From the NCBI RefSeq assembly GCF_003018255.1, contig NZ_CP027440.1: a stretch of 64,000 bases of DNA, one strand, 5' to 3'. Below, piece after piece: positions 2,330-7,756 of this stretch. How positions within the stretch are numbered: the first letter of the stretch is position 1; each line of letters starts with the position of its first letter. The notes below the pieces were generated by a model. That model did not search any database, was not told where the DNA came from, and was given only the letters and a program-made list of their open reading frames with translations. The translations under genes were made by a program, and so were the position numbers. Origin of the DNA: Escherichia coli. Lineage in GTDB: Bacteria; Pseudomonadota; Gammaproteobacteria; Enterobacterales; Enterobacteriaceae.

Positions 2330-2470
2330 ATCAGAATTATTAATTAACTTTTTGATTTTATTGACTAAGAAAAAGAAAAGTAATGTCATCTTTTTGTCAT
2401 GCAGAGTGAAAACTCGCGGACAAAAATGCGTAAGATGACAACGGTGTGAGGAACACCGCTGTCAGTTCGT

Positions 2471-3541
2471 TTAGCGTACAATCTCAATTGTTATCGTTGC
2501 AGTCGCGGTAAATGTTCCTGGCGCGGGGCGAGCCCCCGTAAGGCTTGCAGGAGCAGCAGAAAAAGTGACGCTACCGGCTTTTTCACCAAAGACGGTTGAT
2601 TTACCCATATCTGTCGGCAGTTCACCACCGTTAACATTGATTTCCTTATTATTTTTATCATAAATTTTAATCCCAACGTTCGGGTTTGATGTCACGACCA
2701 TTGAGTTGTCAGTACTGGGTTCGGTAGCATAAAAAGAGGTACTGATATCATCAGTATTTAGTATTCCTAAATTTTCACACTCAATGGTGACGGTTTTGGT
2801 AATTTTATGCGTTGTCACGGTACTTCCAACTACCGAAGAAAAATCTGCCGCAGGAATTTCTTTAAAATCAAAATTAATGGGTCTTAAACTGTTAATTTCA
2901 CAGCTTTGCGGTGCAGTGATATCGCCACGAATATAAACATCCGCCATAGGTTGTGAGTAATCAACCGGAGTGTCACGGCTTATGGTTCCGTACAATTTCG
3001 CCACGAGAGTTTCAGGAATAATTAACTTTCCAGCAAAAGTCTTCTTAATATAAAAATAAATTATTGCTTTTGCACCACTGGAAATACTTAATGGGTCCGT
3101 GCGACTACATTTATATGAACCTCCAGTAGGCCTGTTAGCATGGTATTCAAAAGGTGCATTAATGTATCCTACACCGAGAAGGTCTATCGATATTCCAACA
3201 TCCAGATTAGGATTCAAATTAAAGTAGTTTACATTAGAACGAACACCTGCATAACCTAAGGACTCGTTTATTCTCGCTGTATAATAAATATAAGGAAACT
3301 CTCCCACGTTCCCTGTATCACAATGGCAGTGAGCAGGATAAGAGTCCCCATTTGTCACGGTTTTATTAAAGGTCTTTCCCACTCTGTTCTCGTCTGCCGT
3401 AATCAGATAGCCGGAAAAATCAAGTGTGCTATGAAAGGACCCATTATCTGAAGTGCAGATACCTTTTGGGGCCGCAAATGTTGCGCCACTAAAGGAGAAG
3501 ATAAAAACAATAAAGCACCATGGTATAATATACTTGTTCAT
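2471..3541 (-). CDS. lpfD: Fimbrial tip adhesin / minor subunit (two-domain), last gene of a chaperone-usher operon; lpf2-like by locus
   Basis: 356-aa ORF with N-terminal signal peptide, about twice the length of a pilin, directly after the usher gene; gene symbol inferred from synteny only. Confidence 0.6.
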   Translation of the reverse strand: MNKYIIPWCFIVFIFSFSGATFAAPKGICTSDNGSFHSTLDFSGYLITADENRVGKTFNKTVTNGDSYPAHCHCDTGNVGEFPYIYYTARINESLGYAGVRSNVNYFNLNPNLDVGISIDLLGVGYINAPFEYHANRPTGGSYKCSRTDPLSISSGAKAIIYFYIKKTFAGKLIIPETLVAKLYGTISRDTPVDYSQPMADVYIRGDITAPQSCEINSLRPINFDFKEIPAADFSSVVGSTVTTHKITKTVTIECENLGILNTDDISTSFYATEPSTDNSMVVTSNPNVGIKIYDKNNKEINVNGGELPTDMGKSTVFGEKAGSVTFSAAPASLTGARPAPGTFTATATITIEIVR

Positions 3542-3551
3542 AAAAATCCTT

Positions 3552-6074
3552 TTAATGACATGTCACACCTTGTTCAATTAAGCCGCTTTCACTTTCTGGT
3601 ATTGAAAGTGAATAATCGAAGGTGCATGTAGTGGCGGCATTTTCTCCCCAGGAGAGCATCACCTGCCCTTTTTCAGGAAGGCCCGAGAGATAAAGCTCCC
3701 CCTGGTCACCGACAATTCCTGAATCAGCGGAGCTTGTATTTTGTACTGTAGCAATAGCGCCAAAAGGTGCTGGTTTACCTTTTGTACCCGCAACCCTGAA
3801 AAGCACACGATAACCAACACGAGTAACAAATTCGGCCTTAACCACTGCACCACGGGTGGGAACCATCGTAACGACGGTATTATCAAGTTCTATATTCGAC
3901 TTCGAGAAATAGTTATCGCTGATTGCTACCCGGTTTTCATCATAAGGGTTTAGCTGTGTCTTGACCGTATAGCCGCGCCAGTCCGTCGCAGCACCGCGCA
4001 TATTGTCTATTTCTAACCCGGCAGCCCCTGGTGCTTTAACAAGAGCTATGGTTTCACCCAACTCCTGGCTTAACGTTACGCCTTCGCTGTGCGCCAGAAT
4101 TCCCCCTCTGATACCATAATTCAGCCTCTGAGAATTTTGGCTGTAGTTATAGCTGCCGTTCACCGTGCCATAAGTGCCATCATAGGTCAGGGACATATTA
4201 CCGCCAACCTCATCATCATGGCTGTTATAGGACTGCATTAAATTCCAGGAAAGGTTATTTCTTTCCAGCGCCGTACCGCTGAGTCCAAGTTGATGTGAGC
4301 TACCGGAATTATCGTTTTGTGAAACAGAATAGGTGGCGTAACTATTTCCCCACCAGCCCGATAAAGGAACAGATAAAGAGAGCATGTAGATCTGCTCACT
4401 GGTGTTATCACTGGCATGGTTGTTCCCCGTCCCCTGCCGGGCAGTATTGGAATAACTCCAGGAGACGTTCCACGAGAGACGCTTCCAGCTACTGCTGTAG
4501 CCAAATTGCATTAATCGTTCAACATCATCGGTATGCCAGTACTGCTGGCGACTTAATGTCAGATATAAGTTGCCATAGTCTCTGCCCAGTGATTGCGTTA
4601 ACGTTCCTTCCACACGGCTGCGGCGGTTACCGGTTTCCCAGAAATCTTCAGGATTATTACGCCGCGACGCCCATTCATTGAGAGTATAGTAACCTTCGGT
4701 GGAGTAACGATAGCCAACCAGGCGCAAGCTGGTATCCGTATCGTCAAAGCGTTTCGAATACAGAAAGCGATAAGACTGACCGGTTTCCGTATCAGCATGG
4801 CTAAATTTCGCACGGGCATGTGTCACATCGAAAGAAATTGCACCCAGTGCGCCAAGCTCTTTACCGACACCCAAAGCGGCAGAACCATACTTTTCAGCAG
4901 CCTGCATACCTCCATACAAGGTGAAACCGTAGGGAAAACCATGAAGGATCTGCACCTGAAGAACGTCAGGGGTAAAGCCATCTTCATCGCGTAATTCTCC
5001 CACACTGACATCAACATCAGTTTGACCTTCACGTTTGAGGATGGCTAACGACGCATAAGGTTGAGTAAATCGTTGTTCGCTACCGTCTTCTTCTTTGATG
5101 GTTACGTCCAGATCACCACCTGTACTGGCGGTGTTGAGGTCGGTAATTTCAAAAGCACCTTGTGGAACGGCTGACTGATAAATCACGTAGCCATTCTGGC
5201 GAATAATGACAGTGGCGTTAGACTTTGCAATCCCACGCACTACGGGGGCAAATCCGTTTTGGCTGGCAGGCAACATATCGTTATCGGTATACAAGCGTGC
5301 GCCACGAATTTGCGTACTGTCGAAGATATCGCTCGCCGTCCACGTATCACCTATCATAATCTGGCTTCTTAACGCAGCTATATCACGTTGTATCCAGGTG
5401 CTTATAGAGTTGTATTCTGCACTGCCATCGGTCGTATTTAAGGTGCTGTAATTGCGTAATCGCCACGGCCCAATATTCAGTCCATTGCGCAGATTGAGAT
5501 AACTGGTATCTGTCTCTTGTGAACCATAATCCGAACGTAGAGTATGTGAACCAGAAAAATCGTAGTTGATGGTGAGCGCGTTAATCCCCTCATCCCAACG
5601 CGAGGGGCTGATGTAATCATAAGCCATCGCATCCATATAGATTTGGGGAATGGAGATATTCAGTTGCAGTTTATCGCTGTCGAACTGCCATGATGAGCCT
5701 TCAATGCGTGGCCCAGGATCAATACAGACTGTTTCATCTACATCATTGAGCGATTTCAGCGCATCAACTTTTACGCCAAAGGTGGTTAGCGTTTTTTTAA
5801 TAGCGACAAAGCAGGCGTGTAAATCAGCATCGGGATTATCCTGAACAAAGGTCACATCCTGACGTTCAAACATTTTACCGTTGATAAAAATATCAACGCT
5901 ATAAACACCAGGGGGCATCAGGTTTGCCCGATTAAACTGGCGAATATCGACTCCGGATTGATGGTCGATTTCCAGAAGCGCCGGATTGAATACACTGACC
6001 TCGGCCATCAGGCTTTGCGAGAAAATCAGACACGTCCCTGCCGTGAGGCCAACCACTATTCTGGTCGTCATCAT
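3552..6074 (-). CDS. lpfC: Fimbrial outer-membrane usher protein
   Basis: 840-aa ORF with signal peptide and FimD/PapC-like length and composition; sits between the chaperone and adhesin genes. Confidence 0.85.
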   Translation of the reverse strand: MMTTRIVVGLTAGTCLIFSQSLMAEVSVFNPALLEIDHQSGVDIRQFNRANLMPPGVYSVDIFINGKMFERQDVTFVQDNPDADLHACFVAIKKTLTTFGVKVDALKSLNDVDETVCIDPGPRIEGSSWQFDSDKLQLNISIPQIYMDAMAYDYISPSRWDEGINALTINYDFSGSHTLRSDYGSQETDTSYLNLRNGLNIGPWRLRNYSTLNTTDGSAEYNSISTWIQRDIAALRSQIMIGDTWTASDIFDSTQIRGARLYTDNDMLPASQNGFAPVVRGIAKSNATVIIRQNGYVIYQSAVPQGAFEITDLNTASTGGDLDVTIKEEDGSEQRFTQPYASLAILKREGQTDVDVSVGELRDEDGFTPDVLQVQILHGFPYGFTLYGGMQAAEKYGSAALGVGKELGALGAISFDVTHARAKFSHADTETGQSYRFLYSKRFDDTDTSLRLVGYRYSTEGYYTLNEWASRRNNPEDFWETGNRRSRVEGTLTQSLGRDYGNLYLTLSRQQYWHTDDVERLMQFGYSSSWKRLSWNVSWSYSNTARQGTGNNHASDNTSEQIYMLSLSVPLSGWWGNSYATYSVSQNDNSGSSHQLGLSGTALERNNLSWNLMQSYNSHDDEVGGNMSLTYDGTYGTVNGSYNYSQNSQRLNYGIRGGILAHSEGVTLSQELGETIALVKAPGAAGLEIDNMRGAATDWRGYTVKTQLNPYDENRVAISDNYFSKSNIELDNTVVTMVPTRGAVVKAEFVTRVGYRVLFRVAGTKGKPAPFGAIATVQNTSSADSGIVGDQGELYLSGLPEKGQVMLSWGENAATTCTFDYSLSIPESESGLIEQGVTCH

Positions 6075-7450: not shown

Positions 7451-7710
7451 AAAAACTCCATTGATATAATATATCCTTTACCATGAATCATCACTTATAT
7501 TAATAAGTGTATTTTTGATCCAAAGGAATAGTACACCAAAGAGACAACTTTATCCAAAAATAATATTAATCACTCAATCTTAAATATAAATTATTATTTA
7601 AATATTATTAAAACAGCAAGAAATCAAGTTTATTATCAGACATTAGCAATAATTCAGAATATATTTATATCAATGGGCATATGAATAATGGAATTATTGA
7701 TATCACTTAT

Positions 7711-7741
7711 AAAAAAGGGCCGCCGGTCGGCAGCCCTTTTC
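7711..7741 (-). terminator. glmS rho-independent terminator (region of the Tn7 attachment site)
   Basis: GC-rich hairpin (GGGCCGCCGG / CGGCAGCCC arms) flanked by A/T runs just 3' of the glmS stop; attTn7 is known to lie about 25 bp downstream of glmS. Confidence 0.7.
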
Positions 7742-7756
7742 TATCAACGAGAGATA

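What the first reader, a model, noticed from the sequence alone, without database searches (positions are those of the whole stretch)
2442..7756. Accessory chaperone-usher fimbrial operon in the glmS-pstS gap (lpf2-like)
Core genes glmS and pstS are separated here by about 5.5 kb carrying a compact four-gene operon (pilin 6878-7450, chaperone 6099-6830, usher 3552-6074, two-domain adhesin 2471-3541) with short spacers of 47, 24 and 10 bp. The block is visibly more AT-rich than the flanking core genes. In E. coli K-12 this gap is only about 300 bp, and in other E. coli the second long polar fimbriae operon (lpf2) is reported at exactly this junction with the same gene order. No integrase, transposase or terminal repeats are visible, so the acquisition mechanism is not evident.
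Basis: partly seen in the sequence, partly recalled or inferred. Interest (0 to 1): 0.6.

Follow-up and report, generated by a model that had tools for sequence, protein, structure and literature searches.

The report
Known lpfO113/Stg fimbrial operon, glmS–pstS
This is an intact four-gene operon for adhesive surface hairs (the lpfO113/Stg type of "long polar fimbriae") at its usual, well-documented position between glmS and pstS in E. coli, so the finding is correct but ordinary.

Summary
Four same-strand ORFs encode the pilin (6878-7450), chaperone (6099-6830), usher (3552-6074) and two-domain adhesin (2471-3541). The spacers are 47, 24 and 10 bp. The glmS-pstS gap is 5533 bp here against 313 bp in K-12, and the block is 44% GC against 51% for the window.

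RefSeq annotates it as lpfA/B/C-O113. A block of this family fills the site in 1970 of 5426 complete E. coli genomes, 3064 have the empty K-12 form, and 355 carry the distant O157 lpf2 type.

The window holds the subtype found in IAI39. LpfA, B and C are 95-98% identical to the classical O113 type. LpfD is 84% identical, diverges most in its N-terminal half, and is left unnamed by PGAP; 466 genomes have this lpfD allele. A 2008 genome paper (PMC2608844) already reported a version with the same divergence range at this site.

All four genes are under strong purifying selection (dN/dS 0.04-0.06). There is no integrase, transposase, tRNA or terminal repeat. Pseudocitrobacter and Citrobacter have related operons at the same site, so this looks like an old polymorphic locus rather than a mobile island. 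Already known; low interest.

The parts
1183..2223 (-). pstS, the flanking core gene
   Evidence: ORF; annotated pstS in the identical RefSeq locus
2279..2329 (-). pstS Pho boxes. Homology with the empty K-12 site ends at 2328/2329, the first base of the distal box.
   Evidence: Matches of 17/18, 15/18, 16/18 and 13/18 to CTGTCATAWAWCTGTCAY, with 0 of 500 shuffles reaching the best score; junction
2383..2400 (+). Pho-box-like direct repeat ATGTCATCTTTTTGTCAT, inverted relative to the pstS boxes. It is a conserved island in a divergent spacer; its role is unknown.
   Evidence: 14/18 to the consensus; the core ATGACAAAAAGATGACA is identical in the O113 type, IAI39 and Pseudocitrobacter
2436..2464 (-). 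12-bp-stem hairpin 7 nt after the lpfD stop codon; probable end of the lpf transcript, shielding the pstS promoter
   Evidence: RNA fold -24.1 kcal/mol, z -3.7, 0 of 200 shuffles as stable; the stem is conserved in the O113 type and Pseudocitrobacter. No immediate U-run, so terminator function is inferred.
2471..3541 (-). lpfD, the two-domain tip adhesin (IAI39-type allele; PGAP calls it 'fimbrial protein')
   Evidence: Pfam Fimbrial domain at residues 203-353 only. Aligns over residues 35-354 with the solved LpfD structure 5AFO, E 5e-26. 84.3% identical to LpfD-O113, with the first 150 aligned positions about 73%. No N-terminal donor-strand motif.
3552..6074 (-). lpfC, the outer-membrane usher
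   Evidence: Pfam PapC_N, Usher and PapC_C; PGAP lpfC-O113; 95.4% identical to the O113 type
6099..6830 (-). lpfB, the periplasmic chaperone
   Evidence: NCBIfam PRK15290 at 535 bits against a cut-off of 317; Arg8 and a Lys112-equivalent are present; PGAP lpfB-O113
6878..7450 (-). lpfA, the major pilin subunit
   Evidence: NCBIfam PRK15289 at 390.6 bits against a cut-off of 203; 98.4% identical to LpfA-O113 and 100% to IAI39; donor-strand motif GVVHFVGEIV and a Cys39-Cys79 pair
7451..7708 (-). AT-rich control region upstream of lpfA (the whole 7451-7756 gap is 26.5% GC), with a palindrome CACTTATTAATATAAGTG at 7492-7509
   Evidence: Composition. The proximal 90 bp or so is nearly identical in the O113 type and largely conserved in Pseudocitrobacter. 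Sigma-70-like hexamers at 7685-7658 and 7611-7583 are no more frequent than chance.
7709..7744 (-). glmS intrinsic terminator, separating glmS from the lpf promoter region
   Evidence: 16-bp stem followed by a U-run, -27.3 kcal/mol, z -5.5; inverted repeat I7
7757..9586 (-). glmS, the flanking core gene
   Evidence: ORF; annotation

Best explanation
The block is an intact lpfO113/Stg-type chaperone-usher fimbrial operon (lpfA-lpfB-lpfC-lpfD), in the allelic subtype carried by strain IAI39, at its usual chromosomal site between glmS and pstS.

Inferred mechanism, from homology to the type 1 and Pap systems. The four proteins are exported with signal peptides. The chaperone LpfB caps each subunit by donating a strand. 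The usher LpfC first recruits LpfD, a two-domain adhesin that lacks a donor strand and therefore sits at the tip. LpfC then polymerises LpfA by donor-strand exchange into a surface fibre that mediates adhesion.

Transcription probably starts in the 26% GC region upstream of lpfA. That region is insulated from glmS by the glmS terminator, and transcription probably ends at the hairpin after lpfD, upstream of the intact pstS Pho boxes.

The presence/absence pattern is best explained by an old polymorphic locus shared with other Enterobacteriaceae. Its alleles would be lost or swapped by homologous recombination in the conserved flanks, not moved by a mobile element.
For: Shown:
- ORFs and spacers.
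- 100% nucleotide match to a RefSeq locus annotated lpfA/B/C-O113 plus 'fimbrial protein'.
- Protein identities to the O113 type of 98.4, 97.1, 95.4 and 84.3%, and to IAI39 of 100, 99.2, 99.2 and 97.2%.
- LpfA and LpfB pass the NCBIfam equivalog cut-offs.
- A complete usher architecture.
- An adhesin with a C-terminal pilin domain whose N-terminal region also aligns with the solved LpfD structure 5AFO.
- Chaperone Arg8 and a Lys112-equivalent; a donor-strand motif in LpfA but not in LpfD.
- dN/dS of 0.04-0.06 in all four genes.
- Terminator and hairpin folds.
- Site occupancy of 3064 empty, 1970 lpfO113-family and 355 O157-type genomes out of 5426.
- The same glmS-lpf-pstS layout in Pseudocitrobacter vendiensis and Citrobacter werkmanii.
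- No mobility genes, repeats or tRNA.

Literature: the lpf operon lies between glmS and pstS in E24377A, SMS-3-5 and Sakai (PMC2608844). A four-gene 'lpfB1' lies at the same site (PMC6033998). An lpfA2 mutant of O104:H4 adheres less well to polarised Caco-2 cells (PMC4636846).
Against: - Nothing here shows expression or fibre assembly in this strain, and many E. coli chaperone-usher operons are silent in the laboratory.
- LpfC and LpfD score below every NCBIfam equivalog cut-off, and PGAP does not name this LpfD allele.
- No promoter rises above chance, and no Fur box does either.
- The hairpin after lpfD has no adjacent U-run.
- The scan of other genera used six exact 8-residue peptide patterns, so it says little about how widely the locus is distributed.
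- Ancestral retention and gain by recombination cannot be told apart with these data.
Confidence: 0.93

Rival explanations
1. A recently acquired mobile genomic island, inserted by site-specific recombination or by a Tn7-like element. From general knowledge, the Tn7 attachment site attTn7 lies just downstream of glmS.
For: The block has lower GC than its flanks. Its right boundary lies at the glmS stop codon, close to where Tn7-like elements insert. It is present or absent among strains.
Against: There is no integrase, transposase or tns-like ORF, no terminal direct or inverted repeats and no tRNA. The block replaces 206 bp of K-12 sequence rather than interrupting it. Homologous operons occupy the same site in Citrobacter and Pseudocitrobacter. 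All 473 matches to lpfD are chromosomal.
Confidence: 0.04
2. A decaying or cryptic remnant operon that no longer makes fimbriae.
For: In some genomes the operon is disrupted: IS1 in lpfD (H2/H54), ISEc8 in an O157-type operon (H71), and lpfB split into two ORFs in strain 143. Expression was not tested here.
Against: In the window all four ORFs are full length and match the reference lengths. dN/dS is 0.04-0.06 even where dS is 0.45-1.4. The assembly hallmarks are intact.
Confidence: 0.08
3. A true orthologue of the Salmonella Typhimurium long polar fimbriae (lpfABCDE), or of E. coli type 1 fimbriae.
For: The historical name says so. NCBIfam gives sub-threshold hits to Salmonella LpfA, LpfB, LpfC and LpfD and to Fim families.
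Against: LpfA scores 91 bits against a cut-off of 221, LpfB 135 against 360, LpfC 747 against 1271 and LpfD 135 against 412. There is no lpfE gene. The best adhesin profile is Salmonella StgD, not LpfD or FimH.
Confidence: 0.03

Closest known systems
lpfO113 operon of LEE-negative STEC O113:H21 (lpfA2-1 type; also called lpfB1 in phylogroup B1). I know Doughty et al. 2002 from memory; it is listed in the references of PMC6033998.
   Same: Same site, same four genes in the same order, and nearly the same gene lengths (LpfD 356 vs 357 aa). LpfA is 98.4%, LpfB 97.1% and LpfC 95.4% identical. PGAP uses the -O113 names for A, B and C.
   Different: LpfD is 84.3% identical, about 73% over the first 150 aligned positions, and the last 90 usher residues are also divergent. 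Nucleotide identity across 2201-3800 is 72-86%, and dS for lpfD is about 1.4. PGAP does not name this LpfD.
The lpf operon of E. coli IAI39. The SE11 genome paper (PMC2608844) describes a divergent SMS-3-5 operon with a matching identity range; I did not compare SMS-3-5 directly.
   Same: Essentially the same allele as IAI39: A 100%, B 99.2%, C 99.2% and D 97.2%. The paper reports the SMS-3-5 operon as 83-98% identical to the B1 type, which matches the 84-98% measured here.
   Different: Only point differences. The upstream palindrome is not exact in IAI39.
lpf2 (O-island 154) of E. coli O157:H7
   Same: Same glmS-pstS site, and the same core order of pilin, chaperone, usher and adhesin (PMC6033998).
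   Different: Proteins are only 59.8% (A), about 67% (B), 64% (C) and 40-44% (D) identical. There is a second LpfD-like gene, and lpfB is split in the strain examined. This type is found in 355 genomes.
Stg fimbriae of Salmonella Typhi and of APEC O78 strain chi7122 (Lymberopoulos et al. 2006; recalled from memory, the paper is not held)
   Same: The best NCBIfam adhesin model is StgD. LpfA and LpfB pass the cut-offs of the neighbouring models PRK15289 and PRK15290. From memory, the APEC stg cluster lies in the glmS-pstS intergenic region.
   Different: LpfD scores 227 bits against the StgD cut-off of 493. The Salmonella locus was not examined here.
Type 1 fimbriae (fim) of E. coli, the mechanistic model
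   Same: Same chaperone-usher machinery and domain set. LpfA matches solved FimA structures at E 1e-13 to 5e-17.
   Different: There are no FimF/FimG adaptor genes, no fimB/fimE recombinases and no invertible promoter element. The adhesin is not FimH-like (58 bits against a cut-off of 472).

Membership tests
lpfO113 / Lpf2-1 / Stg-like fimbrial operon of E. coli | Located between glmS and pstS | tested here: met
   pstS 1183-2223 and glmS 7757-9586 flank the block; same layout in the RefSeq loci
lpfO113 / Lpf2-1 / Stg-like fimbrial operon of E. coli | Four genes in the order major subunit, chaperone, usher, adhesin, on one strand | tested here: met
lpfO113 / Lpf2-1 / Stg-like fimbrial operon of E. 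coli | High identity of LpfA, LpfB and LpfC to the O113-type proteins, and curated naming | tested here: met
   98.4, 97.1 and 95.4%; PGAP lpfA/B/C-O113 on the 100% identical locus; LpfA and LpfB pass the NCBIfam cut-offs
lpfO113 / Lpf2-1 / Stg-like fimbrial operon of E. coli | LpfD recognised as LpfD-O113 | tested here: not met
   84.3% identity. PGAP labels it only 'fimbrial protein' in all listed genomes with this allele. It is a divergent allele of the same gene, so this affects only the subtype label.
lpfO113 / Lpf2-1 / Stg-like fimbrial operon of E. coli | Produces fimbriae that mediate adhesion | not testable with these tools
   Needs expression, electron microscopy and adhesion assays. 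The literature shows it for related alleles (PMC4636846).
O157:H7 lpf2 (OI-154) | Same site | tested here: met
O157:H7 lpf2 (OI-154) | Gene set with a second LpfD-like gene, and close identity to LpfA2 | tested here: not met
   Four genes here against five functional units there; identities of 40-67%
Salmonella Typhimurium Lpf (lpfABCDE) | Equivalog-level match to LpfA-D and presence of lpfE | tested here: not met
   All four proteins score below the cut-offs (91/221, 135/360, 747/1271, 135/412). No fifth subunit gene.
Chaperone-usher pathway, FGS chaperone / type-1-like clade | PapD-like chaperone with the Arg8/Lys112 pair, a PapC-like usher with N- and C-terminal domains, pilins with an N-terminal donor strand, and a two-domain adhesin without one | tested here: met
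   Assignment to the gamma-1 clade of the Nuccio and Baumler scheme is from memory and was not tested by phylogeny.
Mobile genomic island or Tn7-like element at glmS | Integrase or transposase genes, element ends or direct repeats | tested here: not met

The most novel reading that the evidence does not exclude
The glmS-pstS site may hold several very old allelic lineages of one fimbrial family that cross genus boundaries. The window's usher is 91% identical to that of Pseudocitrobacter but only 64% to that of E. coli O157. Divergence rises steeply toward the adhesin end (dS 0.16 in lpfA, about 1.4 in lpfD). The IAI39-type LpfD binding domain could therefore give a different receptor or host specificity from LpfD-O113. 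Separately, the perfectly conserved inverted Pho-box-like repeat between lpfD and the pstS promoter could couple or insulate fimbrial and phosphate-starvation transcription.
Probability: 0.25. Interest if true: 0.3.

Novelty: already known. Interest (0 to 1): 0.1.

Why it matters
The practical value is annotation. The block marks the strain as carrying an lpfO113/Stg-type adhesin operon, a recognised colonisation factor and typing marker in STEC, EAEC and APEC. The site is a four-state polymorphism that is easy to score. Two modest points go beyond the textbook picture: the adhesin allele in 466 genomes still lacks a curated name, and the locus appears to predate the split of several enterobacterial genera. 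Neither changes current understanding.

Tried and rejected
- **Terminal repeats and Tn7-like ends:** only short chance-level repeats were found.
- **Remnants of the operon in K-12's 206-bp spacer:** local alignment scores fell within the shuffle range, with 51 and 31 of 300 shuffles reaching the observed score.
- **Fur box upstream of lpfA:** I looked because, from memory, the literature links stg and lpf2 to iron. The best match was 12/19, reached by 370 of 500 shuffles.
- **Pap-like Dam/Lrp phase switch:** there is only one GATC in the control region.
- **fim-like invertible switch:** no flanking inverted repeats and no recombinase gene.
- **Promoter and terminator consensus scan:** counts equal chance.
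- **Hairpin in the lpfA-lpfB spacer:** not better than shuffles, z -0.4.
- **PADLOC scan:** no hits.
- **Literature:** the first two searches were swamped by the neuroscience term 'pSTS' or found nothing. Lymberopoulos 2006 (PMC1595498) is not held. No open paper stating the Salmonella stg location was found.
- **Genome-collection scan:** it returned only 3 loci because it relies on six exact peptide patterns, so it cannot be used for distribution estimates.
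Full report
**Observation**

The spacers are 47, 24 and 10 bp. The ORFs lie between pstS (1183-2223) and glmS (7757-9586). The glmS-pstS gap is 5533 bp here and 313 bp in K-12 MG1655. The block is 44.2% GC, against 51.2% for the window and 52-53% for the two flanking genes. lpfD is 40.4% GC and the region upstream of lpfA is 26.5%. Nothing in or next to the block encodes an integrase or transposase. There are no terminal repeats and no tRNA genes or Rfam families.

**Identity**

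Megablast of 2100-7900 against 5426 complete E. coli genomes found a 100% match in strain JNE23-011. Full-length matches occur in 1970 genomes, annotated by PGAP as lpfA-O113, lpfB-O113, lpfC-O113 and either lpfD-O113 or 'fimbrial protein'.

The family and domain scans agree:
- LpfA passes the NCBIfam equivalog cut-off (PRK15289, 390.6 bits against 203).
- LpfB also passes (PRK15290, 535 bits against 317).
- LpfC and LpfD score below every cut-off. For LpfD the best model is Salmonella StgD, at 227 bits against 493.
- Pfam shows a complete usher with PapC_N, Usher and PapC_C domains.
- LpfD has a C-terminal pilin domain at residues 203-353. Its N-terminal part has no Pfam family, but residues 35-354 align with both domains of the solved LpfD structure 5AFO at E 5e-26.
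- The chaperone keeps Arg8 and a Lys112-equivalent.
- LpfA has the alternating hydrophobic N-terminal donor strand (GVVHFVGEIV). LpfD lacks one, as expected for a tip adhesin.

The mechanism is therefore the standard chaperone-usher pathway. This is inferred from homology and was not tested.

**Subtype**

| Compared with | LpfA | LpfB | LpfC | LpfD |
|---|---|---|---|---|
| Classical O113/B1 type (O91:H21 FWSEC0008) | 98.4% | 97.1% | 95.4% | 84.3% |
| IAI39 | 100% | 99.2% | 99.2% | 97.2% |
| O157-like lpf2 (strain 143) | 59.8% | about 67% | 64% | 40.5% and 43.9% |

The LpfD differences from the O113 type are concentrated in the first 150 aligned positions, at about 73% identity, against about 94% in the remainder.

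Nucleotide identity to the O113 type is mosaic. It is 93-98% over lpfA, lpfB and parts of lpfC, and 72-86% over 2201-3800, which covers the 3' end of lpfC, lpfD and the spacer. Synonymous divergence rises from the flanks (pstS 0.07, glmS 0.12) through lpfA 0.16, lpfB 0.24 and lpfC 0.45 to lpfD at about 1.4. dN/dS is 0.04-0.06 in all four lpf genes. These are old alleles kept under purifying selection, not decaying genes.

The window's lpfD allele occurs in 466 genomes and is always chromosomal. They include many avian and human isolates.

The O157-like lpf2 operon sits at the same site. It carries a second LpfD-like gene, and its chaperone gene is split in the strain examined.

**Site occupancy and junctions**

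| State of the site | Genomes (of 5426) |
|---|---|
| K-12-type 206-bp spacer (empty) | 3064 |
| lpfO113 family | 1970 |
| O157 type | 355 |

Together these account for 5389 of 5426 genomes.

Homology with K-12 ends at window 2328/2329, which is the first base of the distal pstS Pho box. It resumes at 7755, beside the glmS stop codon. About 5.4 kb therefore replaces 206 bp. That 206 bp holds no significant remnant of either end of the island.

A strong intrinsic terminator for glmS at 7709-7744 (z -5.5) separates glmS from the lpf control region. A 12-bp-stem hairpin at 2436-2464 (z -3.7) follows lpfD.

**Origin**

A scan of one genome per species, using the usher as query, returned three loci:
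- **Pseudocitrobacter vendiensis:** the same glmS-lpfABCD-pstS layout, with A 87%, B 85%, C 91% and D 80% identity. Its flanking core proteins are 91-96% identical to the window's.
- **Citrobacter werkmanii:** the same layout plus an extra LpfA-like gene before pstS, with A 68%, B 60%, C 67% and D 38% identity.
- **Escherichia whittamii:** a partial locus, with C 92% and D 81% identity.

The window's usher is closer to the Pseudocitrobacter usher (91%) than to the E. coli O157 usher (64%). The O157 usher is closest to the Citrobacter usher (73.5%). Together with the absence of mobility functions, this favours an old resident polymorphic locus, with loss or allele exchange by homologous recombination in the conserved flanks.

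The scan depends on six exact 8-residue peptides. It therefore cannot measure distribution, and it cannot separate ancestral retention from recombinational gain.

**What is already known**

- The SE11 genome paper (PMC2608844, 2008) states that the lpf operon lies between glmS and pstS in E24377A, SMS-3-5 and O157 Sakai. It reports that the SMS-3-5 version is 83-98% identical to the B1 version and that the O157 version is 34-63% identical. Those ranges match the ones measured here. I did not compare SMS-3-5 directly.
- PMC6033998 (2018) describes the four-gene 'lpfB1' operon at this site and its higher expression in HUS-associated strains.
- PMC4636846 (2015) classifies the O113-like allele as lpfA2-1. 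It reports homologues of that allele in 47.6% of a small set of 21 APEC and retail chicken-meat genomes. It also shows reduced adherence of an lpfA2 mutant to polarised Caco-2 cells.
- From memory, Doughty et al. 2002 defined lpfO113, and Lymberopoulos et al. 2006 described the same cluster as Stg fimbriae in the glmS-pstS region of APEC. The second paper could not be opened.

**Verdict**

This is the lpfO113/Stg type in the subtype found in IAI39, not the O157 lpf2 operon. It is already known and of low interest.

Three small points go beyond the literature I could read:
- the adhesin allele has no curated name;
- divergence rises in a gradient toward the adhesin gene;
- the locus is shared across genera.

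Two short conserved motifs, a Pho-box-like repeat at 2383-2400 and a palindrome at 7492-7509, are noted but not explained.

Noticed in passing
window 2383-2400 (+): ATGTCATCTTTTTGTCAT is a Pho-box-like direct repeat with an 11-bp period (14/18 to the consensus), inverted relative to the pstS Pho boxes 54 bp away. Its core ATGACAAAAAGATGACA is identical in the O113 type, IAI39 and Pseudocitrobacter, although the surrounding spacer is only about 78-79% identical. It is absent from K-12, the O157 type and C. werkmanii. Its function is unknown.
   Followed up: partly
window 7492-7509 (-): A palindrome CACTTATTAATATAAGTG lies about 45-60 nt upstream of the lpfA start codon, inside a stretch of about 90 bp that is nearly identical in the O113 type and largely conserved in Pseudocitrobacter. 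It is not exact in IAI39. It could be an operator or a hairpin in the 5' untranslated region.
   Followed up: partly
L001-L008 junctions; window 7709-7744: Each lineage (window/O113, K-12, Pseudocitrobacter, C. werkmanii) has a different glmS terminator hairpin directly after a conserved glmS 3' end. All share the pstS promoter from the distal Pho box onward.
   Followed up: partly
hits H2/H54, H71; L004 14084-14712: The operon is inactivated in some genomes: IS1 in lpfD of strain S1-ISR-02-A, ISEc8 in the O157-type operon of OkiPb01693, and the O157-type chaperone gene split into two ORFs in strain 143.
   Followed up: no
L005 5954-6526: The Citrobacter werkmanii locus has a fifth gene between lpfD and pstS. 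It encodes a second LpfA-like subunit, 56% identical to the window's LpfA and 66% to its own LpfA.
   Followed up: partly
L004 1542-3926 and L008 1-132: Beyond phoU, the O157-like strain 143 and IAI39 carry a large gene absent from the K-12-type annotation. It is annotated 'hypothetical protein' in strain 143 and 'type III effector protein' in IAI39. I did not check whether the window has it.
   Followed up: no
window 21658-21670; 37723-42945; 11202-11359: Context features of the window: one exact oriC-type 13-mer GATCTATTTATTT; an rRNA operon with tRNA-Glu, tRNA-Asp and tRNA-Trp; and the sRNA STnc410 downstream of glmU. All fit the E. coli oriC-proximal region.
   Followed up: no
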